A stretch of DNA of 64,000 nt from Eledone cirrhosa. Lineage: Eukaryota. Position 1 is the first letter of the stretch. Each line of letters begins with the position of its first letter. The stretch is taken from positions 83,824,001 through 83,888,000 of the forward strand of contig OZ024742.1 of assembly GCA_964016885.1 (NCBI GenBank). Direction: 5' to 3'. The notes below the pieces were generated by a model that had not been told where the DNA came from, ran no database searches, and saw nothing but the letters and a program-made list of their open reading frames with translations. Positions 4,483-63,604 of this stretch are shown here, one piece after another. Made by a program: the position numbers and the translations under genes.

Positions 4483-5029
4483 CTCCATCCCATCCCATTT
4501 CTAGGTGAGAGTGGCCACCCTGCTCGTCACCTCGTCCCAGTTTTTATCCATCTGGAGGGGCAGACCAAACCAGACCCCGATCTAATCACACAGAGCTCAC
4601 TATAAGAAAACATTAAGGACGGCACAGGACAACATAAGCTGGCACATGGCTATACAGTGTGGGGTTTTGCGTGTAAAGACATTCAAAGAAAGTCGACAAA
4701 AGCTTCAGTTACCCTGACCTTTCGGGTACATACTCAGTCATGGATGTTGCTTTCACTCACTCTTCAGCAAATTGTGTTGGAAGGTAGTACATCCCACACA
4801 CATTCAATAATATCCATACCTGCAAACACACGCTCGCATACAGACAGACATGCATACACATCTACCTAGTTGATGTTGTCTAAATTCCAATGAAAGATGC
4901 TTATGTCTAGGTTAGAAATCGATTCTCTCTATTGGTAAAAAATTTATAAAATTATAAAACCAGATGAATGTACATACATACATACATACATACTACATAC
5001 ATACATACATACATGGCAGCCACCATGCA

Positions 5030-5596
5030 TGGTGGCTGCCAACTCGTTTTCGAGTACGGCCACTACTTTATATCCATGTAGGAGAACCCCTACCGATGCG
5101 CTGAACGAGTGTGACTTTTTAGTCCAGCCAGCGACTTGAAAACTCTGGTATAAACACTACACCTTTGACAATTATTGACACACAGTGCTGGGCCCATAGT
5201 ACCATGTGATGACAAGTGCAGAGAGATCTCCAGATATAAAGCAATGCCTGTGCCGTGAAGCTTTTATAGTGAGCAAAGGCACTGCACAAAGCCAGTCCCA
5301 CTCTTAACCAAGATGATATTTACCAAAAAGAAGAACAAGTCAACATCATTGGATACCATCAGGGTTGCAGGTGTTATATCAGAGTTTTCTTTCTCCTAGA
5401 ATTCTGCCTTGACAAAGGCTAAGGGGTCATCTCTCCCGGTGATTTTGGATGACCATTGACTCTCAAGAGCTCCTTTGCCCTTTGACAGGTTTTGTTTTTA
5501 GTCCTGCAGGATGTCCAAAGTCACCCTCCTCACCAAGAAACCTTGGTGGGGTTGTACTGGGATACATGTTACCAGTAGCACCAACTGGTGACCTGA
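5030..5596 (-). mobile_element. Non-autonomous bipartite RTE-derived retroelement, longest copy
   Basis: Contains an RTE-type 5'UTR motif (gtcaaggcagaattctaggagaaagaaaactctgat) and an RTE-type 3' end (C2H2-like tail remnant then tactcgaaaacgagt hairpin). Sister copies lie at 25969-26328 and 63274-63604. Flanked by (ATAC)n. Confidence 0.75.
5494..5593 (-). ncRNA. Candidate atypical HDV-like ribozyme at the 5' end of the element
   Basis: P1 GGUCACC/GGUGACU, P2 GUUU/AAAC, P3 CUU/GAG, P4 UCCUGCAGGA and J4/2 CUAA occur in HDV order. L3 (GGUGAG) and P1.1 are non-canonical. Confidence 0.33.
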
Positions 5597-7033: not shown

Positions 7034-8162
7034 ATACCAGTTTCTTACAAATAACGAAGAATCTCGATATATTAACACATAAGGAAAGGATAGAGACCAT
7101 TTTTTTTTTTTTATTATATACATCATCATCATCATCATCATCAACGTTTAACGTCCGTGTTCCACGCTTGCATGGGTTTGGACGGGGGTAGTCCCACTTG
7201 AGGCAAGAGTGATTGTCTTGCTCGCATAGGACTGTCTGGCAGGTTTTCTACAGTTGGATGCCCTTCCTAACACCAACCACATTTACAGTGTGGGTCTGGG
7301 AGGTTTTTACCGTGTTGCCTACACGGCCACATTACAGCGTGGACTGTGTGTTTTTTTGTCGTGACACCTACACGATCTCATTTGTTTCGGCCTCGATGGC
7401 GCGGCACCAACATAACTTTACATAGAACGGGGTGGTGTGGATCGGGTGGGGGTGGTGGGACGGGGTGTATTTGTTAGAGATGCCTACTGGCTGGAGTAGG
7501 TTTTACTATATATTTAGGTAAGGCGGGTCTTCTCTGTTACTGAGTACCGCCAAAGGTCTCGGTCCAGTGACATTGTCTTGGAGAGGTGTAAGTGTGTGAT
7601 GTCGGAGTTTATCAGCTCGTCCCAGGTTTTTCTAGGTCTGCCTATTCCGTGACTACCGTCTATCTTTATTGCCCTGCACTTTGTTATACAGCTATCGACT
7701 TTCATGCGCATCACGTGTCCATACCAACGTAGCCTTCTCTCGAGTAGACAACATCTGATCCCTCTTATCTCTAATTTATTCCTTAGTTCGTTTATGCTTT
7801 GCCGTTCACGTATATTACTGTTACACATCCAGCGGAGCATGCAAGCTTCGTTCCTCTCTAGTCTGCGTATATCCTCTGCACACAATGCCCAGGTCTCACT
7901 GCCATGCAGCATTGCTGTTCGTATGCAGGCATCGTACAACCTGCCTTTCATTTTTAGTGAGAACCCTTTAGCAGCTAATAGTGGTATAAGCTCTCTGAAC
8001 TTTTTCCAACCAGTTCTGACTCTAGCTACAGTACTTTCAGAGCACCCTCCCCCACTGCTGATTTTATCGCCATATATATATAATAAAAAAAAAATATGGT
8101 CTCTATCCTTTCCTTATGTGTTAATATATCGAGATTCTTCGCTATTTGTAAGAAACTGGTAT
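7034..8162. repeat. ~86-bp inverted repeat (7034-7120 / 8077-8162) enclosing an RTE fragment
   Basis: ataccagtttcttacaaata..aaggaaaggatagagaccat..attatata and its reverse complement, near-identical. Confidence 0.9.
7121..8070 (-). mobile_element. RTE LINE 3' fragment with (GAT)n tail
   Basis: KGRLYDACIRTAMLHGSETW..RRLRWYGHVMR..GRPRKTW..DRDLWR, followed by a 3' region ending in (CAT)n on the plus strand. Confidence 0.92.
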
Positions 8163-22379: not shown

Positions 22380-23090
22380 ATTAGGCATGAATCGAAGTTG
22401 GGGATCCTCGGTTAATGAACCATCTTTATGGAAGAGTGGCCCAATCTTGCAGTGTAATGAGGCAGTTTCTTTTTGCAAATTTAAAGAAGGCCTTGTTTTA
22501 ATATTTTCTATGACCCTGGTTTCTCTCTCTGCCCTCTCATGGAAAAGTTTGAGTGCAGTTTCAAGTAGTGCCTGTTCAGATAGGGTTCCTTCTTGTTTTT
22601 CTGTTGTGCATTTAACTGGTTTGAGAGCTTAGTTCTTCGACTCATAAGGATTTTCCTGTCTCTGGGAATAAGATTTTTGTCACTGTTGGCCTTTTTCTCT
22701 GGGACAAACTTATGGCATATAGTTGGGGATTAACATCACTGATTCAGCCATATAAGAATTGATGAAAACAGAGCAGTATTGTTTCTTCAGTATCTCACCC
22801 ATGGTTTTAGCATTATCTTGGAGAGTGCCATTTTCATCAATTAGTGGGCTAACAGTGGAGCCAGTGACTTTGTGTTTTTTCGCAAATGAAAAGAACACTT
22901 TGGGATTGAGTTTGATTTTCTCAATGGCCCAGGCCTCTTCAGTTGCTCTTTGATTGTTGATGATGGACATTATGCTGTTTTTGAGGTTGTGTTTTTTTTT
23001 ATTCTAGTCAAATGGGTGTTGCTGCTGGCAGTATTACTGTTTGTTGATTTTTTGTTAATTCTTTAATTCTGATAAGTGTTCTATTTCTTT
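22380..23090 (-). mobile_element. CR1-group LINE ORF2 fragment (region between APE and RT)
   Basis: EEAWAIEKIKLNPKVFFSFAKK..VSPLIDENG..MGEILKKQYCSVF. Confidence 0.75.
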
Positions 23091-23098
23091 ATACATAT

Positions 23099-23138
<40 letters not shown>

Positions 23139-23140
23139 GT

Positions 23141-23920
23141 GTGTGTGTGTGTATATATTCTATAAATTCTATAAAATGCATACAATGCAGATCTTGGGTA
23201 CACAAGAGATGTAGTGGGATAGCAGGCAAACTAACAGGTAGGGAGAAATACGTATGTAGTAGATGTACAGGGAAATTAGACAGTAGAAGTTGCATTGATA
23301 GACACATTTTTCAAATGCAGGGGAGTGTTATAAAAGTGGTTGATAGCTTCCGGTACCTAGGAGATCAGATTAGCATGGGATGGGGGTGTTCTGAGGCCAT
23401 AGTATCTAGAATAAGGACGGTTTGGAAGAAGTTTAGGGAGCTGCTTCCTCTGTTGACGAAGAAGGGTTTCTCCCTGCGTACAAAAGGCTGGTTATATGAT
23501 GCCTGTGTGAGATGCGTGATGCTGCATGGTAGTGAGACATGGGCAACAACTGCAGAGGATATGCGACGGCTGGAGAGAAATGAGGCAAACATGCTCTGTT
23601 GGATGTGAAATTTCAATGTGCATGGATGTGTTGAGAGAGAAACTGTGAGAGGGATAGATTGTAGTGTGCGAGAGAGGAGACTGCAATGGGATGTGCATGG
23701 AGGATGACCGATGGGTGAAGAAGTGCCAGGAAATGCCAGTTGAAGGAAGATGTGGTAGAGGTAGACCACGAAAAACATGGGCGGAGGTGGTGAGAGCAGA
23801 CCTCAGAATGCTGAAGCTCACGGTAGAGATGACGAAGGACCGTGACAAGTGGAGAGATGCTGTGCTGAATAGGACCTGTCCCACCCTTGCAAGCACGGAA
23901 AAGCGGACGTAAAATGATGA
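23141..23920 (+). mobile_element. RTE LINE 3' fragment with PHD-like Cys/His insert
   Basis: NSIKCIQCRSWVHKRCSG..VDSFRYLGD..KGWLYDACVR..LHGSETW..GRGRPRKTW..DRDKWR, then a GAT-type tail. Confidence 0.9.
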
Positions 23921-23934
23921 CGATACATTGGTTT

Positions 23935-25960
23935 TTGAGTTTGATTTTCTCAATGGTCCATTTCTCTTCAGCTGTTCTTTGGTTATTGATGATGGTTTCC
24001 ATGCATTGTTGGAAGTTATATTTTTTTTTTTATTCAAGCAATGCGATATCTTCAAATGTATGTGTGTTGCTGTTGGCAGTATTTTAGTTTAATTTTTTTG
24101 TTTGTTCTTTTTATTTTTCTGATAATAGTTTTTCTGCTTTGGGGATTCTGCACTTAGTTTTGTTCACAGATCTTGGTGGGGTATGTTTTGCACATAAGTT
24201 TGTGACAGTGTCTACAAAAATCTGCCAAGATGTTTTGATGTTGGTGGAGATGTGTGCATGTGTAAAAGACCAGTCAACATATGATATCTCATTCATGATT
24301 GCATTCCAGTTGGCATTATAGAGATCCATGTTATCAAATGGGTGGGCTGGAGAAAGGTCATAAGGATTAGCTTTCAGCTGGTTGAATCTCAGGTTACAGA
24401 GAACCATGTCCTGGTCTGTCTGAAAGAAGGGTTATTTCCACTAATATTTATAGTGTTAGTGTGGTTACTAAACACTAGGTCCAAAATATTCTGATATCTT
24501 GTTGGTGCAAGGACAAGTTGGGACAAGAAAGACTCATTCATAAAGTTGAGAAGTCATACTACTGCTTCTGTGTCAGTGGTTGAAGTGGGAGTGCCTGGTT
24601 CCAAACTGTTTGTAGACCAGTCAACACAGGGTAGATTAATGTCTTATCATGAGTATGCTACTAGAATGACACTGCTGAATAAAGTGCTTAATGCTGTTGA
24701 GGCATTCTTTAAAGTGCAGTATGGGTGCTTGGGGTGGCCTATAGATCCCAACTGCTATCAGGTCATTAGCTTTGTTGTGCACAGTGACTGATTCACATTA
24801 GCCATTGGAGAATGTGATATTCTCATCTGCTGTAAAGGAATCATGCAGGAAAATGGCAGTTCCACCCTTCCTTCTGTTGACATGATCCGAGCGAATGGTT
24901 GTGAAATTTCTCACGTTCACGTCGGCTTCCAAGTGGGAGTTATCAAGGTGGGTCTCAGTAAGAATTGGACCTTTCATTTTTGTGCATTGAGTAGAAATGT
25001 GGAGGCTTGTGTAGTGGCTGCTTTTGACTTGCAGGAGGCTTGTTTTGTGTTTGCATGTTAGTGACAGCAATGTGGGGAGTTGGTGCACTGGGGTAATAGC
25101 ATAGGATGGTGTTGAGTGATGGCTAGAAGGGTTTGTATCTCTTTTGCCATGTTCATCATGGCTAAAAAAGAATTTTCCTGCTTAGGGAGCAGTTTTTGAC
25201 TGGGGGTGTGGTTGCACTGTTGGATAGGGTTATAGTTTCCGCTTTTGTTGTTTTTGTGTCTTTGTGAAAAGACTGGACCAGCAATACTGCAGCAGTGAGT
25301 ATTTTTACTGTGGTTTGTGTATTGGCTTGGAGCCCCATTTCTGTTAGTGCATAGGGTCCCTGGAAGATGAGTGAAGGGACAGTCACACTGCGGGCATAGT
25401 CTCTCGCATTGGGAATACCAGCAGATTTTGGGGTATTGAGTTATGTGTGTTTCAGCGTTCAATTTACTATTTGTTGGTGTTGAAGTTGATATTATTGTGG
25501 GATGCGTGCTTTGGCCTTGGCTAGTAGTGTTTGTATGGATTGTACCTCTTGTCCCAGGTAGATGTGTGAAGATGCAGTCACTATGTGTGCAGAGCCTCTG
25601 ACATAGTGAATAGCTGCATATTTTGGGGTTTCTTGTTTGTGTCGCGGCGGCGGCATGCTGCTTCATAGATTTTGGTAGTTTTTTTTTTTTATAGTATTGT
25701 AGGATTGAGGTGGTGATGTGGGGGAAGAAAGCAGTGGTTTATTATTAGTAGTTGAGGTGGTAGAAGACAATGGTAGTGGTGGTGATAGTGATGATAATTG
25801 TGGTGGTTGCTGTGAAAGTGGTGAGTGAGAGAGTGCTGAAGAGAGACTGTTTTTGAGTAAATCTACTATTATGCTGGAATTTAGGAGTGGTTCTTCCTGT
25901 TGTTGCTGTGGCTGTTCTGATTGTTGTTCTTGATTTTGTGGCTGTTGCTGTTGACTAATA
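23935..25960 (-). mobile_element. 5' half of a CR1-group LINE: ORF1 with two CCCH-like zinc fingers plus decayed APE endonuclease
   Basis: ORF1 has KIC(S/W)YS.C.RLC...DC.FTHLPGT twice (25058-25666). APE motifs follow: LTETHL..RSDH..RKGGTAIF..IYRPP..PTRYQNILDLVF. Confidence 0.8.
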
Positions 25961-25968
25961 TTTGAAGA

Positions 25969-26328
25969 GAAAACTCTGATATAACACCTGCAACCCTGAT
26001 GGTATCCAATGATGTTGACCTGTTCTTCTTTTTGGTAAATATCATCTTGGTTAAGAGAGTGGGACTGGCTTTGTGCAGTGCCTTTGCTCACTATAAAAGC
26101 TTCACGGCACAGGCATTGGTTTATCTGGAGATCTCTCTGCACTTGTTGTCACATGGTACCATGGGCCCAGCACTATGTGTCAGTAATTGTCACAGGTGTA
26201 GTGTTTGTACCAGAGTTTTCAAGTCGCTGGCTGGACTAAAAAGTCACACTTATTCAGCGCATCGGTAGGGGTTCTCCTACATGGATATAAAGTAGTGGCC
26301 GTACTCGAAAACGAGTTGGCAGCCACCA
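25969..26328 (+). mobile_element. Bipartite RTE-derived element, 5'-truncated copy
   Basis: Reverse complement of 5030-5389. Retains CSVCTRVFKSLAGLKSHTYSAHR*. Confidence 0.85.
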
Positions 26329-26711
26329 TATATGTATGATTATGTGTATGTATATATATATATAGATGTATATATATGTGTATATATATATATATATATA
26401 TACATGTGTGTGTGTGTATTTGTGTGTATGTGTATCATCATCATCATGATAATGATATATATACATGTGTGTGTGTGTGTTTGTGTATTTGTGTGTATGT
26501 ATGTGTATTTGTACGTGTATGTGTATGTATGTATATATATATATGTATATGTATGTATATATATGTGTATGTATATATATATATGTGTGCATGTAATTGT
26601 GTGTGCATGTGTGTTTATTTTTCCTTTCCTTCTTCCTTTTCCAGCCTCACTTTCATATAGATTATATTTTTGGTTTTTAAAATCCAATGTCAATAAATAC
26701 ACCAGGATTTT

Positions 26712-26770
26712 TTCATTCTGATGATTGAAAGCAAAATTTGTTTGCTTTCAAGAAACCACTGGTTAATGAA
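26712..26770 (+). ncRNA. Minimal type-I hammerhead ribozyme in a short dispersed repeat
   Basis: UUCAUU-CUGAUGA-[11-bp perfect stem II]-GAAA-CCACUGG-UU-AAUGAA: complete core, 6-bp stem I, near-palindromic stem III. Confidence 0.78.
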
Positions 26771-26874
26771 ATAATTGCCATATGTTGTTTATTACATAAC
26801 TATTAAGCTCTGTAACCTACATAGAGCACTCTTTTTTCCTGGAACTTTCCGACGGAATTACTTCATATATATAT

Positions 26875-28706
26875 ACTAGCATTAAAGCCCGGCGTTGCTC
26901 GGGGTCATTAAGTTACCAAAGTTAGGTTACACCACCCATTTTATGGCAGCACTTTTTTGTCTGCCAGGCACTGGGTGAATGAATTGCAGAACCTGGAAGC
27001 ATGAGCTGCGCCAGCAGTGACAATTGTAGTTTCGCCTATGGATATTATCTCTGTGCAAAAAAGTGTTGAAATTTATTGTTTCACAGTACTTGCGCAACAC
27101 GCGCGTAGATGATGCCAGCCGAACAACAGAGCTGCGATGGAGTTGTTCTGCATGGTTGTCTGTGTGTTTTCTCAATTTAAGACAGTAGGGAGGGTTGTGA
27201 TATGAGGGAGAATTAGCTGTTGTTTCTAGCAGGTTTAGTGACCTCATAGAGGATATGTGTTTTCTAAATTTAAGACAGTAGGGAGTGGTGTGATATGGGG
27301 GAGAGTTAGCTGCTGTTTCTAGCAGGTTTAGTGACCTCATAGAAGATATGTTTTCTAAATTTAAGACAGTAGGGAGTGGTGTGATATGGGGGAGAGTTAG
27401 CTGCTGTTTCTAGCAGGTTTAGTGACCTCATAGAAGATATGTTTTCTAAATTTAAGACAGTAGGGAGGGGTGTGATATGGGGGAGAGTTAGCTGCTGTTT
27501 CTAGCAGGTTTAGTAACCTCACAGAAGATATGTGTTTTCTAAATTTAAGACAGTAGGGAGTGGTGTGAACGGACAGTATCACCATCAAGCTTGGAAAGAG
27601 AAAGTAGCAGAAAGTATGAAGTTGTATAGATTTTGAATGGTAGTAGAAAGAGTTCAGCAGTTTAAAGGAGAGAGAAAAATCGTAAAATATTGAGTTTTAT
27701 CTATTTTTTGCGTAATTGTGGGTGAAATTGAAAAAATGATCTGCGTCAAGACGCAATCGAAGCTATTTCGAATTCTGAATTGTAAATTTCAATTGAAGAA
27801 ATTCTATATCGTAGATTTCTATAACGAAGGAGCATGTCCACACACTGAGCTTTATAGATTATGATGATAAAGGGTGAAAGTTAGTTAAAGATAGATATTT
27901 TAATGTGAATGAAATGTGGAAAATTTATTTTGACCGTGGAAGGAAAAGAAACAAATATTTGGAGTTGAAAGAAATTGTTTAGGTAAGTATAGCGACAGAG
28001 TGTGTAAAGTGTATTGAAACGTGAGTTAAAAGAAAGAAAATGAAGTGAGATTTGTAAGAAAGGAAGTTGTTTACGTACGTGTGAAAATATTTGTGTAAAG
28101 TGTATAGAAACGTAAATTGAAACAAATAAAATGAACTGAAATTTTTAGAAAGGAATTTTTTTACGTACATGTTGCAAATGGCAAATGTTTGTGGTTATAA
28201 ATCCCGCACGTTGTTTAATTGAAGTGAGTGTGTGTTTGTATGCGTTTGGAAATAAATCAGTAAGTTTGAATTCCCGCACGTTGTTTAATTGAAGTGAGTG
28301 TGTGTTTGTATGCGTTTGGAAATAAATCAGTAAGTTTGAGGTATAAAAGAGAAAGTAGCAAAATGAGTGGGTTGTAGATAGAGGAGGAAGCAGATGATAT
28401 TATAGAGTAAAACGGACAGTATCACCATCAAGCTTGGAAAGAGAAAGTAGCAGAAAGTATGAAGTTGTATAGATTTTTAATGGTAGTTGAAAGAGTTTAG
28501 CAGTTTAAATGACAGAGAAAAATCGTAAAATATTGAGTTTTATCTATTTTTTGCGTAATTGTGGGTGAAATTGAAAAAATTATCTGCATCAAGACGCAAT
28601 CGAAACTATTTCGAATACTGAATGGTAAATTTCAATTGAAGAAATTCTATATCGTAGATTTCTATAACGAAGGAGCTTGACTACACACTGAGCTTTATAG
28701 ATTATG

Positions 28707-28707
<1 letters not shown>
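26875..28707 (-). mobile_element. Non-autonomous Helitron with internal tandem repeats
   Basis: Minus-strand 3' end has a hairpin ccgagcaacgccggg then gctag|t; the 5' end reads a|tcataatctataaagc. The 5' ~300 bp is duplicated (27568-27867 / 28411-28707), and there is a 69-bp tandem at 28202-28339. Confidence 0.8.
27161..27567. repeat. Minisatellite, 91-93-bp unit, about 4.4 copies
   Basis: gacagtagggag recurs at 27181, 27274, 27365, 27456 and 27549. Confidence 0.95.
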
Positions 28708-28752
<45 letters not shown>

Positions 28753-42239: not shown

Positions 42240-42889
42240 AGATAAGCATTTCTCAGCTGTTTAAATTTATAGAAAAGCAACCCCAGGATACTGAAGAATG
42301 TTTTGATCCTTTATCACTTTGTACTGTTGTGGAAATCATTGTAAGCTTATTCAACTAAGAGTTCCCCAATTTCCAAATCTACCATTCCAATGAGGAGTGG
42401 CTGTGTGAAAGAGCAATCCTTGCCCCTAACAATATCAGTGAATGCCAGCAACAAAATCTATCACAAATAATTCCTGTAGGTAGCCAGACCTATAAATCTA
42501 TTGACAAAGTTGTCGACGACGACAAAGCTGTTTATTATCCCGTTTAATTAATCAACAGTCTGGAACTGTGGGCGCTATCATCATGCTTCTCAGAAACCTG
42601 GCTCAACCAAGATTGTGAAACGGGACGCTTATGGTTATGACTGAGCTATAGCCTCACATCATCGAAGCTAAAATTCTCACTGGATGCGATAAGGGAGACA
42701 TCCCATTTATATCTAGAATGCCGCTAACACCAACATATGTCCCTTTTCGTTTCAAACAATTGCAATTCCGACTGATAGTCAGTTACGCAATGACTATCAA
42801 CAAGTCCCAAGGTCGAATACTGCAGGTTGTCGGTCATCATCTAGAAGAGAGCTGTTTCTCACATGGCCAATTGTATGTAGATTCTAGAC
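42240..42889 (+). pseudogene. Helitron PIF1-like helicase fragment, interrupted by the hAT element and continuing at 51454
   Basis: WLCERAILAPNN..YKSIDKV..MLLRNL..IEAKILTG..RMPL..FKQLQF..YAMTINKSQG..CFSHGQLYV. Confidence 0.92.
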
Positions 42890-43470
42890 CAAAGGTTCTC
42901 AACCCATTTCGGCCCCTTTTGCCCCTCAAAATCACGAAACGCCCCTACCCTATTTTTCCATTTTTCAATATACTACTGATTTTGATATCAGTAGATTACT
43001 AAAAAATTGATTAACGATATTCCAAAGATACCATTGCAGGCAGCTGAGAGTATAAATACATTCCTTGAAAGGAAGTATATAAATTTCAAAAATAGGAACA
43101 TAAATGTTCTTTTTTATGAATAAGGACCAGTTGAATTTTTTATATTCCCACCAGACGATACCAGCTATTTTGAACATTTATACAAGAGCAACTCTGTCTA
43201 TCCAAAGAGTGCTCTGACCTGGAAGAAAGTGGCAATTGTATTATATCAAAGCTTTCCAATTTTCCCTTTAATGAAACGGACAGAATATATGTTGATATCT
43301 AACTTGATGTCCCCTCCGCTTTGTGAGCTTAGAGACCACGGAAGAGAGTTTTCATGACCACGTAAATGGTAAAATATATACAACAAATGAGTAAGTGAAT
43401 TGTGGTAGATGGTTTCCAGTCCAGTCACACTGCAACTACAAATAAAAAATCGACTTACTTTGACCTCGTA

Positions 43471-45251
43471 TCAATGGGACCCTTGAGCTCGATGGAGTTT
43501 AGCTAACTCTTTGACGTCAGGCTGGATTTTCGTGAGCTGTAGCCGGAGATCTCCACGTGCAATCAGATTGTAGCGGTTGCGAGCCTTACTATGCAGTCTG
43601 GAAACAACGCCAAACCCCCTCTCGACTAAGTATGAGCAAGGAAAAGGCAAAGCAAATCTCTTAGCCTCTGCATGTAGGAGTGGAAATCGACGCTGAATTT
43701 CCTCTTGCATCCAAAAAAGGGGTTCACCTATTTTGGAAAATTTAATTTTGATAATGTCATCTGTCTGAAGTTCAATTAATTCTTCCTGAAATTTAACGTC
43801 GAAATCGTCGACGTTAGCTATGAAGGGATCTGCTATCCACATTGGGATGTCCATCTGCAAAAGGTCGACAAACCGTTCTCTCATGTTGTCTTGTAGACGG
43901 AGGTGCGCGGTATAAATTTGGAGTTGGTCATCGCTCACAATGTTTTGAACATTGGCGACACTAGGAAAATTATAGAATTTCCGTCGACAAAGATTCCTTT
44001 CGATGACTTTCAATTTGGCCAGGAATATTTTCACAGCATTCCTTGCTTTAAACAAGGTGATCTCCTCCTCCTGCAAAGCTATAATGAGGCTATTGCATTT
44101 GTCGAAGATGTCGGCGAGGTAGGCACAGTCTTGCCTCACATCGATGTTTTTTTTCTATACAGTTCTGTGTTGCGTCCTCGAAGAAACTCAATGATAGAGT
44201 CGAACAGTTCAAAGAAGCGAGTAAGGCACTTGCCCTTTGAAAGCCACCTCACTTCAGTATGAAGGAGCAACTCGACGAATTCTTCGTCATTATCTTCGCA
44301 CAGTTACCGGAAAATTCGTTCATTGTTGGCATGGCGTTTGATATAATTGATGACATCAATGGCTACCTGCAAAGACTTGCTCAGCGGCTCGCTGAGTTTC
44401 TTCGTAGCCAAGTGTTGTCGATGAATGACACAATGAACAGCAAATACAGATGGATTTTCCCTCTTCAGAAGAGAGACGAAACCCTTATGTTGGCCGACCA
44501 TTGCTCTTGCGCCGTCCGTAGCACATGATACAATATTGTTAAGAGATATCTCTTTTTCTTCGAGGTATCCCTTGACAGATTCAAAGATGGCGGCACCTTT
44601 AGTATCTGTGGCTAGATTCAGAGTGAAGAGAAGCTCCTCGTGCATTTCGTTTTGGTGGAAAAATCGCACGTATACCAGTAGTAAGGACTGATTCCCGGAA
44701 AGTGTGCTTTCATCAAGTTGCAAAGCAAATTGTGTCGATTTCAAGATGTTGCATAATTTTTGTTCAACATTTTCCGCCATTTCGTCGATGCGTCTCCTTA
44801 TTGAGTCGTTACTCAACGGAATACATTTCAAGGTCTTTAACGGGTTCTGACGTAGTACTGTTGAAAGAACTTCTGAGATGACAGGGACTACCAATGTTTC
44901 ACCCAAGGAATAGGGCTTGCCACACTTTGCGATTATGTTGGCAATATTGTAAGATGCGACAAGTCCATCAACATTTGAAGCTTCAACTTTTGAAAAGGCA
45001 GAAGAAATTAGTGTTGTTTTCTGGAATTGGTCCCTAAGAGACTGAAAGTATGCTAAATCTTTATATCTCTTATCGGAGTGCCTCACCTCCAGGTGTCTAC
45101 TCAAACGCGATGGCTTCATCGCCTCATTCGAAAATTACTCCTTGCAAATTAAACACATGGGTGACAGGTGGTTCGACGGCAATGGGATGAATCCGAACCG
45201 TAAGTAATCAACGCTGTACTGCCTGCCTTTTTTCTTCATTGCTGAGGCCAT
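43471..45251 (-). pseudogene. Nearly full-length Buster-type hAT transposase (two nonsense codons, one frameshift)
   Basis: RQYSVDYLRFGF..PMCLIC..MKPSRLSRHL (BED finger)..FALQLDEST..TDGARAM..HCVIHRQHL..HTEVRWLSKG..FPCSYLVERGF..RGDLRL..QGSH*. Stops near 45136 and 44305; frameshift near 44150. Confidence 0.95.
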
Positions 45252-46225: not shown

Positions 46226-47380
46226 TAGAACTTTCCAAATGTATCATATCTCGCATCATTGCTGTCAATAAATAATTTAGCAACTTCTTCACAACTAATC
46301 TTTTTCAAAACATCTCTATGAACGCCTCATATTAGAATATGATTCAACCTTTGCTGAGTCACGGTCGATCGCAACCAAGTTTTGAGTCTCTGCAGAGCGC
46401 TAAAAGATCTTTCAGCTTCACAAGAACTGGTTGGAAACATTAAAAGTAGCCTGAGCAATCGCTCAACATTTAGAAACATGCGACAGACTGGTTGCATTTC
46501 ACCGAATATTTTACGATGATCCTTGAGAGATAATCCACTATGATGATTTCTATAAAAAAGTATTTCGTTCCTTAAAGAAAATTCATCAAGCTCTGGATAC
46601 TGCATGATCACTTCAGCACAAACATTTCCATTGAGTAAAATATTGCTCAGTTTTTCATAATCTGCTAAATCCTGTGAAAAAAAAAAAATCTTTCAAATTT
46701 GATATTGCAGTATCCGCTACCTGCAAATACTGCACTCTGTAATGACCCAAAGCAGTGCAGTGTTGATATTTCAACGCATTTCCTTCTTGGTATCTTTTAG
46801 GAACTTTTCGTTGCTTGGGTAGCTCCAAAGGAGAAATATCGAGTTGATAAATCATTTTTTCTGCTGTATTGAACAGCTGCGTAGATTTTTTTAACTCCTC
46901 CTGCACCAGTTTGACACCATGCAACATTCTACCTAGATTGAAGGTGGCACTTTGAAAAGATTTCTTCAATCCTTCAAGGAATTGAAGTAATGGAACTACA
47001 ACGTGCAATCCAAGAACACATTGGCCCGGAGAATGACACGTAAGAATAATATTAGCTCTGGATGCAATGTTGGTGCTAAACTCATTTGTTGCCTCTTGTA
47101 AAGAAATAGGGACATCTGAATAATTGTCAAGAAGGGCTTTGATTGCAGAAAGTCGTGTTAGCCATCGAGTAGGGCACACAGGTGTTAAGGAGCGTGGGGA
47201 CGATACTTCATTTTCTTCATCATGTTGTGATAAATGCGCTTGCTTAAATTTCCCTGATGTACTATATAGTTTCCGCAATTCATTCACGTAATCTAGAACA
47301 GTTTGATAAGTGAAGCTTGTTGTACGGACTTAGTTATAATAAGTTGAGAAATATGAATGCCGCAGTGCACGTAATGGGCC
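46226..47380 (-). pseudogene. Second hAT transposase (Tip100/ZMYM1-like), C-terminal half
   Basis: VHC..H..CPTRWL..LPKQRKVPKRY..PTSSCEAERSFSALQRLKTWLRSTVTQQRLNH..TFGKF*. Confidence 0.9.
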
Positions 47381-48555: not shown

Positions 48556-48870
48556 TCTACACACACATATATTTTACTTTTTTTCTGTCTCTGGACTACG
48601 CCCATGCTGGAGCATCACCTTGGTAAGTTATGGAGACGTCAACAAACCAACAAGCATTGGTGGGAGGGCAAACACAAACGCAAAGACACATACAGACATA
48701 TATACATATATACGATGGGCTTCTTTTAGTTTCGATCTATCAAATCCACTCACAGGGCTTTGGTCTGCTCCAGCAGTGGGACTGAACCCGGAAATATGTG
48801 GTTGGGAAACAAGCTTCTTGTCACACTGCATATATATATAATCCACTGCCAATAAAGACACCAGGATCTT

Positions 48871-48928
48871 TTCATTCTGATGAATGAAAGCAATTTTGGT
48901 TGCTTTCTAGAAACCACTGGTAAATGAA
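48871..48928 (+). ncRNA. Second copy of the minimal type-I hammerhead ribozyme
   Basis: UUCAUU-CUGAUGA-au[GAAAGCAA/UUGCUUUC]ua-GAAA-CCACUGG-UA-AAUGAA with a GUA triplet. 48842-48960 is homologous to 26682-26801. Confidence 0.68.
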
Positions 48929-48954
48929 ATAATTATCTTATGTTGTTTATTACA

Positions 48955-49016
<62 letters not shown>

Positions 49017-52345: not shown

Positions 52346-52401
<56 letters not shown>

Positions 52402-63125: not shown

Positions 63126-63273
63126 TATATATATATATATGTACATATATATATGTACATATATATATACATACATACATATATATACATACATACATAT
63201 ATATACATACATACATATATATATATATATACATACATATATATACATATATATATATACATATATATATATA
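62935..63273. repeat. (TA)/(CA) microsatellite
   Basis: Direct inspection. Confidence 0.97.
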
Positions 63274-63604
63274 TGGTGGCTGCCAACTCGTTTTCGAGTA
63301 CGGCCACCACTTTATATCCATGTAGGAGAACCCCTACCGATGCACTCTGGCACAAACACTACACTTGTGACAATTATTGACACAGTGCTGGGCCCATAGT
63401 ACCATGTGACAACAAGTGCAGAGCGATCTCCAGATATAAAGCAATGCCTGTGCCGTGAAGCTTTTATAGTGAGCAAAGGCACTGCACAAAGCCAGTCCCA
63501 CTCTCTTAACCAAGATGATATTTACCAAAAAGAAGAACAAGTCAACATCATTGGATACCATCAGAGTTGCAGGTGTTATATCAGAGTTTTCCATCTCCTA
63601 GAAT
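63274..63604 (-). mobile_element. Bipartite RTE-derived element, third copy (5'-truncated, with a small internal deletion)
   Basis: Matches 5030-5403 and abuts an RTE 3' end. Confidence 0.85.

What the first reader, a model, noticed from the sequence alone, without database searches (positions are those of the whole stretch)
26610..26870. Short non-coding dispersed element carrying an essentially intact hammerhead ribozyme (retrozyme or Penelope pLTR-like)
Seen: a ~260-bp island between microsatellite tracts containing stem I UUCAUU/AAUGAA, core CUGAUGA, a perfect 11-bp stem II (26725-26735 / 26741-26751), GAAA, stem III ACCA-C-UGGU and a predicted cut after 26764 (GUU). A second copy at 48842-48960 keeps the core and stems I and III exactly, varies in the stem II base and loop, and has GUA. 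No ORF is attached. Known: minimal type-I hammerheads with palindromic stem III occur in Penelope-like elements and non-LTR retrozymes, often cleave as dimers, and can yield circular RNAs. Unusual here: the long stem II and a U-A rather than purine-pyrimidine closing pair. Inference: a possibly undescribed cephalopod ribozyme-bearing mobile family.
Basis: partly seen in the sequence, partly recalled or inferred. Interest (0 to 1): 0.75.

Follow-up and report, generated by a model that had tools for sequence, protein, structure and literature searches.

The report
Hammerhead end of Hydra-clade Penelope retrotransposon
This is the cut-off end of a known kind of jumping gene (a Penelope-like retrotransposon) carrying a predicted self-cutting RNA motif found over 6,000 times in this genome; it is mostly ordinary, though its copies suggest it is likely copied more than once round from a single, possibly circular, RNA.

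Summary
The hammerhead motif is real in both window copies, but it is not a stand-alone non-coding element. It is the 5'-truncated end (pLTR) of an autonomous Penelope-like retroelement. The genome holds 6,314 exact motif matches against 0 for the control. Long copies run: pLTR with hammerhead, 226-nt 5'UTR, 710-aa RT plus GIY-YIG-type ORF, microsatellite-rich 3'UTR, hammerhead. The protein carries the Hydra-clade motifs of Craig 2021, a clade already published from Octopus with a hammerhead. The 'unusual U-A closing pair' is a variable slot shared by Hydra hammerheads; the long stem II is unusual. Copies end at two fixed sites downstream of the predicted cut, and 25 of 28 two-armed insertions use one of each. 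The two pLTRs of one insertion are nearest to each other in 17 of 18 comparisons, which points to one re-used, possibly circular, template. The youngest subfamily carries an internal hammerhead with G at the cut site (438 versus 1). Cleavage and circles are untested. The scan had already noted Hydra-clade hammerheads elsewhere in this genome. New member of a known kind.

The parts
26329..26866 (+). Copy 1: 5'-truncated Hydra-clade PLE end (distal 3'UTR, hammerhead, tail), ending at site 2
   Evidence: 83% identity over 26328-26875 to the end of ORF-bearing copy L041; 85-89% to other copies; rest of the element absent from the window
26329..26611 (+). Microsatellite-rich distal 3'UTR (TA/TG repeats), part of the element
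   Evidence: Shared with L014, L015, L017, L022 and others
26670..26687 (+). Near-palindrome at which the two arms of inverted insertions are often joined
   Evidence: Self-match; 13 of 28 close two-armed insertions have both 5' ends at -84 to -104 from the cut
26711..26771 (+). Type I hammerhead motif: stem I 26711-17/26765-71, core 26718-24, slot 26725/26751, stem II 26726-35/26741-50, GAA 26752-54, stem III 26755-57/26761-63, predicted cut after 26764
   Evidence: Sequence, fold, pair counts on 28 variants
26800..26803 (+). Site 1: fixed 3' end of many copies, 36-39 nt after the predicted cut (inferred RT start)
   Evidence: 83 of 243 arms end here, 78 of them into TA/CA repeats; loose ends at the same place in public contigs
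26801..26866 (+). 'Tail' of about 65-70 nt between the two end sites; it is the start of the element's 5'UTR and has two predicted hairpins
   Evidence: Continues into the 5'UTR and ORF in full-length copies; fold z -2.96, 4 of 500 shuffles as low
26865..26871 (+). Site 2: second fixed 3' end, about 101-107 nt after the cut, joined to (TA)n
   Evidence: 81 of 243 arms end here, 78 of them into TA/CA repeats
48840..48961 (+). Copy 2: short 5'-truncated copy of another subfamily (B), ending at site 1, inside (TA)n; carries a private change (T48908) that breaks the otherwise conserved U-A pair of stem II
   Evidence: (40 other places at 97-98%)

Best explanation
The finding is the 5'-truncated, hammerhead-bearing end of an autonomous Hydra-clade Penelope-like retrotransposon, likely inserted by target-primed reverse transcription into a (TA)n tract from an RNA that is probably a self-cut and re-joined circle. 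Shown: a unit of 4.1-4.7 kb (cut site, 226-nt 5'UTR, 710-aa ORF, microsatellite-rich 3'UTR, hammerhead), two fixed 3' ends, (TA)n flanks, and partial tandems and inverted arms. Inferred: the endonuclease cuts both DNA strands; each DNA end primes copying at one of two internal RNA sites, about 39 and 105 nt downstream of the hammerhead cut; most copying stops early, leaving short ends like the two in the window; two cDNAs join head-to-head, often at palindromes. Inferred less firmly: tandem hammerheads, paired through the palindromic stem III and perhaps helped by the protein, release a unit-length RNA that is ligated. Copying round it would rebuild the intact hammerhead and the upstream pLTR. 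Odds: identity 0.97, two-site priming 0.85, circular template about 0.5.
For: Linkage: hammerhead-end sequence in 19 of 20 ORF loci; a same-strand copy downstream in 14 and upstream, joined to the 5'UTR, in 10. Protein: 25 of 101 matches lie in stop-free frames of 699-750 codons; 20 of 20 fetched have 714-718-codon frames; model pLDDT 93, top PDB folds are telomerase RTs; Hydra motifs present. Ends: 164 of 174 arms that neither run into the ORF nor are internal end at site 1 or 2; 25 of 28 close two-armed insertions use one of each and none uses the same site twice. This matches the two RT start sites shown for Anolis Poseidon (PMC11167929). Template: both sites lie downstream of the cut, so a cut linear monomer would give only products of about 39 or 105 nt, yet copies span the cut; 0 of 30 tail-selected loci start at the cut. 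Re-use: partner pLTR nearest in 17 of 18 comparisons, median 2 differences within versus 17 and 22.5 between loci; rare variants shared in 4 of 18 direct pairs versus 105 of 15,337 unrelated pairs. Structure kept: core invariant, 3 stem II pairs change on both sides.
Against: No cleavage, ligation or RNA was observed. In the only purified PLE system, hammerhead mutants did not affect insertion, uncut RNA was the main substrate, and no reads ended at the cut (PMC11167929). PLE hammerheads cleave poorly in vitro (PMC4209133). The active monomer fold is predicted to be rare: 0.17 for the commonest subfamily-A sequence, 0.003-0.005 for window copy 1, under 0.001 for copy 2. One of the 18 pLTR comparisons failed (L094 upstream), and 3 of 12 loci with both pLTRs were left out because the upstream pLTR was short. 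In ORF loci with an inverted arm the one-of-each rule held in 7 of 9. Stems I and III barely vary, so they give almost no covariation support; pairs changed on both sides (4) did not exceed shuffles (247 of 500). Loci were picked by similarity, not at random.
Confidence: 0.55

Rival explanations
1. Same element, but the template is an uncut linear transcript. The upstream pLTR arises by template jumping or re-priming on the same or a sister RNA, or is copied from tandem donors. The hammerhead is weak, acts late, or only shapes the RNA near the start sites.
For: In vitro, Poseidon insertion does not need cleavage. The predicted active fold is rare. No arm set starts at the cut, which fits an uncut template as well as a ligated one. 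Sister RNAs from one donor would also give matching pLTRs.
Against: Upstream pLTRs reach at least 1,830 bp with 0 substitutions in 4 of 12 loci, and pairs group by locus rather than by position; plain inheritance from tandem donors does not predict this. Copying passes the cut site and 5'UTR without a scar. The core is invariant across diverged subfamilies.
Confidence: 0.35
2. The matching pLTRs come from gene conversion or from assembly homogenisation, so they say nothing about the template.
For: The repeats lie only 4-5 kb apart; the assembly method is unknown; the youngest pairs are near-identical.
Against: Three of the 4 pairs that share a rare variant (L041, L057, L096) also differ at 6-12 other sites.
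Confidence: 0.07
3. A non-autonomous retrozyme: a short non-coding monomer mobilised in trans.
For: Most copies are short and lack the ORF; type I hammerheads with palindromic stem III occur in retrozymes.
Against: No short tandem monomer in the window or in the loci mapped. 5' ends are variable and lead into the ORF; the unit is 4.1-4.7 kb.
Confidence: 0.03

Closest known systems
Hydra clade of C-terminal-endonuclease Penelope-like elements, including Hydra-1_Obim (Craig et al. 2021, PMC8557442; section 11, passages, supplement part 2 of 59 and supplement search hits read)
   Same: Single ORF of about 710 aa with RWK, DKT, CxCX5C linker, no CCHH, CxxC and CxH around E and N; (TA)n targets; type I hammerhead with an extra slot at the base of stem II; stem III ACCA-n-UGGU as in Hydra-1_Obim.
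   Different: Unit 4.1-4.7 kb against generally under 3 kb, owing to a microsatellite-rich 3'UTR; stem II 10-11 bp against 3-7 bp in the published Hydra table; clear pLTRs, where Hydra-1_Obim is noted as 'no pLTR'; internal G17 hammerhead in the youngest subfamily. Protein and hammerhead differ from Hydra-1_Obim by eye; no alignment was run.
Poseidon of Anolis carolinensis, PAc (Frangieh et al. 2024, PMC11167929; parts 1-2 of 4 read)
   Same: AT-rich targets; two fixed ends bounding a tail, downstream of a pLTR hammerhead.
   Different: Different clade; tail about 65-70 nt and in the 5'UTR, against the typical 30-40 bp and inside the ORF in PAc; here the hammerhead lies 226 nt before the ATG, in PAc it overlaps it.
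Minimal PLE hammerheads (Cervera and De la Pena 2014, PMC4209133; parts 1-2 of 4 read)
   Same: pLTR location, enlarged stem II, palindromic stem III, extra nucleotide after position 9, mostly solo or opposite-strand copies.
   Different: No G10.1-C11.1 pair next to the core; stem II longer than 7-8 bp; stem III has 3 bp.
Metazoan non-LTR retrozymes (Cervera and de la Pena 2020, PMC7229834, passages read; Li et al. 2026, 10.64898/2026.07.22.740005, part 1 of 5 read)
   Same: Type I hammerhead; proposed circular RNA intermediate; link to PLEs.
   Different: Those are non-coding tandem monomers of a few hundred bases; this is an autonomous element.

Membership tests
Type I hammerhead ribozyme | Core CUGANGA...GAAA...NUH with stems I-III | tested here: met
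   core invariant in 28 variants, N7 variable; 91% of cells paired
Type I hammerhead ribozyme | Purine-pyrimidine pair 10.1-11.1 next to the core | tested here: not met
   Slot is U, C or A opposite invariant A; unpaired in 19 of 28. Published Hydra hammerheads often have an unpaired slot too
Type I hammerhead ribozyme | Match to Rfam hammerhead models | tested here: not met
   No hammerhead family at gathering score, at E<=1 on the window or at E<=10 on 221 nt
Type I hammerhead ribozyme | Self-cleavage after N17 | not testable with these tools
   Needs an in vitro assay; fold estimates only
Penelope-like element | Telomerase-like RT | tested here: met
   YRDD in 102 of 102 aligned proteins; top 7 fold matches are telomerase RTs, E 6e-9 to 3e-8. 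Pfam gave no relevant match
Penelope-like element | C-terminal GIY-YIG endonuclease in the same ORF | tested here: met
   By motif only: VVY...YVG...R...E...N conserved in 99-102 of 102, matching the Hydra alignment read; no separate fold search of the domain
Penelope-like element | Partial tandems forming pLTRs, 5' truncation, inverted 5' arms, tail at one end | tested here: met
Penelope-like element | Hammerhead in the pLTR | tested here: met
Hydra clade | RWK and DKT motifs | tested here: met
   RWK at 37, DKT at 114 of the L100 protein
Hydra clade | CxCX5C linker, no CCHH, CxxC and CxH flanking E and N | tested here: met
   CSCRKPDEC 555-563; no Cys between VVY and YVG; CSLC 658; CPH 689
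Hydra clade | Insertion into (TA)n | tested here: met
   156 of 164 site-1 and site-2 ends are followed by TA/CA repeats
Hydra clade | Generally short (<3 kb) | tested here: not met
   Unit 4,143-4,678 bp in 12 of 12 loci measured; the paper gives length as a tendency
Hydra clade | Placement in the RT tree with published Hydra proteins | not tested
   The published sequences were seen only in the paper's supplement and were not aligned
Non-LTR retrozyme | Non-coding short tandem monomers with a hammerhead in each unit | tested here: not met
Non-LTR retrozyme | Abundant small circular RNA | not testable with these tools
   No RNA run was available for this stretch

The most novel reading that the evidence does not exclude
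A very recently active Hydra-clade PLE whose genomic copies record a circular RNA intermediate. Hammerheads cut a 4.3-kb unit, it is ligated, and a two-ended enzyme copies round it from two fixed sites, so both pLTRs are reset to identity at each jump. A second hammerhead captured inside the 3'UTR survived only with G at the cut site, which would mean cutting happens in vivo and that a second cut is selected against.
Probability: 0.3. Interest if true: 0.68.

Novelty: new member of a known kind. Interest (0 to 1): 0.32.

Why it matters
As found, it is ordinary PLE debris of a clade already described from Octopus. Its use is as a test system. What PLE hammerheads do, and how pLTRs, inverted arms and tails form, is stated as open in Craig 2021. 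This family offers intact ORFs on different contigs differing by as little as 1 of 2,142 nt, a strict two-site rule, per-insertion pLTR identity, and a natural internal G17 variant. These allow a direct test of the circular-template model (Cervera and De la Pena 2014) against the uncut-template result (Frangieh 2024). It also shows that Rfam misses a hammerhead family with over 6,000 copies.

Tried and rejected
Rfam gave only microsatellite-driven miRNA matches and no hammerhead. Pfam and PDB sequence searches gave nothing relevant. The Atlas gave RT-type clusters as a lead only. No RNA holder listed. The four runs of unknown kind from one study, laid as contigs, show loose ends at sites 1 and 2; they may be the assembly's own sample, so I do not count them as independent. 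Neptune clade was considered from the Cys linker and rejected: spacing CxCX5C, RWK, DKT and no CCHH fit Hydra. RT run-off at the cut was rejected. A link to the LINE on the left was rejected: its 5' end recurs elsewhere in TA tracts without this element. No further piece of the PLE lies in the window. A relaxed descriptor gave 5 hits in the window; the other 3 have 0-1 bp of stem II. Stem I probabilities had an index slip and are replaced. Literature searches found no paper on this family or on per-insertion pLTR identity in PLEs; most subscription papers and Repbase were not searchable. The bioRxiv supplements were not seen and might list this family.

Full report
Observation. Both hammerhead motifs are present at the stated coordinates. 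Copy 1 folds into stems I-III around CUGAUGA and GAAA, with the predicted cut after 26764. A pattern that fixes the core and leaves stem II free matches 6,314 places in the genome and its reversed control none. Rfam hammerhead models do not detect it.

What it belongs to. Searches with each window copy returned 53 and 41 matches at 93-100% from 40 scored of 1,285 and 1,037 candidates. Copies share their 3' part, are cut at variable 5' points and sit in (TA)n. Longer copies lead through about 1.7 kb of microsatellite-rich sequence to an ORF. Of 20 loci fetched by the ORF alone, 19 hold hammerhead-end sequence; 14 have it downstream on the same strand and 10 upstream, running without a break into the 5'UTR and ATG. 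The unit from cut to cut is 4,143-4,678 bp, with the ATG 226 nt after the cut, in 12 of 12 loci with both ends. Window copy 1 is the last 540 bp of such a unit and copy 2 the last 120 bp; nothing else of the element lies in the window.

The protein. 25 of 101 protein matches lie in stop-free frames of 699-750 codons; all 20 fetched had 714-718 codons. Among 15 of these, copies on different contigs differ by as little as 1 of 2,142 nt, so this subfamily is very young; the window copies belong to older subfamilies. A model built with 101 homologues (pLDDT 93) matches telomerase RTs best. The motifs that define the Hydra clade in Craig 2021 are present: RWK, DKT, CxCX5C, no CCHH, CxxC and CxH. 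That paper's supplement lists Hydra-1_Obim, a (TA)n-targeting Octopus family with a hammerhead; by eye its protein is related but distinct.

The ribozyme motif. Across 28 variants chosen to span subfamilies, the core is invariant apart from N7, 91% of stem cells pair, and three stem II pairs change on both sides. The variants are related, so this is moderate support; the count of pairs changed on both sides did not beat shuffles. The first 'pair' of stem II is U, C or A opposite an invariant A and is unpaired in 19 of 28; many published Hydra hammerheads have a similar slot. Stem II of 10-11 bp is longer than the 3-7 bp in that table. Stem III is palindromic, with a predicted duplex of -8.2 kcal/mol between two copies, while the active monomer fold is predicted at 0.17 or less. 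Dimer- or protein-assisted cleavage is therefore likely, as reported for other PLEs. Both window copies carry private changes and may be weak.

How copies are made. Of 243 distinct arms in 140 loci, 83 end at site 1 (about +39), 81 at site 2 (about +105), 41 run into the ORF, 28 are the internal hammerhead and 10 end elsewhere. Of 28 close head-to-head insertions, 25 pair site 1 with site 2, none repeats a site, and 3 involve other ends. In ORF loci the rule held in 7 of 9. This fits two RT start sites bounding the tail, shown in vitro for Anolis Poseidon, with one site used at each DNA end (inferred). Both sites lie downstream of the cut, and 0 of 30 tail-selected loci begin at the cut, so the template has an intact hammerhead: uncut or re-ligated.

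One template used twice. In 9 young loci with long upstream pLTRs (3 of 12 left out as too short), the partner pLTR was strictly nearest in 17 of 18 comparisons; median differences were 2 within loci and 17 and 22.5 between loci. Rare variants were shared in 4 of 18 direct pairs against 105 of 15,337 unrelated pairs, and 3 of the 4 also differ at other sites. A circle explains this simply (proposed in PMC4209133). Template jumping on uncut RNA explains it too, and fits the finding that cleavage is dispensable in vitro. I put these at about 0.55 and 0.35.

Internal hammerhead. The intact subfamily has a second, diverged copy about 400 nt after the stop codon, ending at a site-1-like position; none was found in the 30 older loci L031-L060. 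It looks like an old self-insertion into the element's own (TA)n (inferred). N17 is G in 26 of 26 matches in the 20 loci and in 438 of 439 genome-wide. G17 strongly impairs minimal hammerheads but not all tertiary-stabilised ones (PMC3884650, abstract only). One founder mutation could explain this, so selection is not shown.

Prior work and verdict. Searches found no description of this family; passages of PMC6962438 and PMC13282606 mention hammerhead counts or recently active Penelope families without detail. Earlier scan notes report Hydra-clade hammerheads and two-site ends for other families in this genome; none matched this sequence. Verdict: new family of a known clade, interest 0.32.

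Noticed in passing
L100:4955-5055 (+) and equivalent places in L091-L110: Second hammerhead inside the 3'UTR of the youngest subfamily, with G at the cut site (438 versus 1 genome-wide); later versions also break the stem III palindrome.
   Followed up: partly
window 24000-26328 (-); 5' part again at 5029-5390 and 63272-63591: Decayed LINE-like element with endonuclease remnants (CR1 type by recalled motifs); its presumed 5' end abuts copy 1 and could form nested hairpins (seen by eye).
   Followed up: partly
window 26876-28708: Element starting TACTAGC with 4.4 copies of a 91-bp repeat and a duplicated 290-bp block; similar starts near 52400 and 53790. Resembles a non-autonomous Helitron-type element (recalled motif).
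   Followed up: no
L032:1004-6760: Young Ty3/Gypsy-like LTR element: 407-bp repeats 99.3% identical around open 344-aa and 1,061-aa frames.
   Followed up: no
L109:58-2139 (-); L034:1776-2552 (+): ORFs of other Hydra-like PLE families (694 aa open; 259-aa fragment), so several families coexist.
   Followed up: no
L128:1451-1609: Two-armed insertion whose arms join exactly at the stem III palindrome; many others join at the palindrome equivalent to 26670-26687.
   Followed up: partly
window 43471-45134 and 46327-47329 (-); 42652-43002 (+); 7514-8113 and 23048-23608: Fragments resembling hAT transposases, a Helitron helicase and RTE-type LINE ORFs (labels recalled, not searched).
   Followed up: no
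L036:1240-4005 (locus coordinates): An RTE-type LINE is nested in the 3'UTR of a near-full-length copy of this PLE.
   Followed up: no
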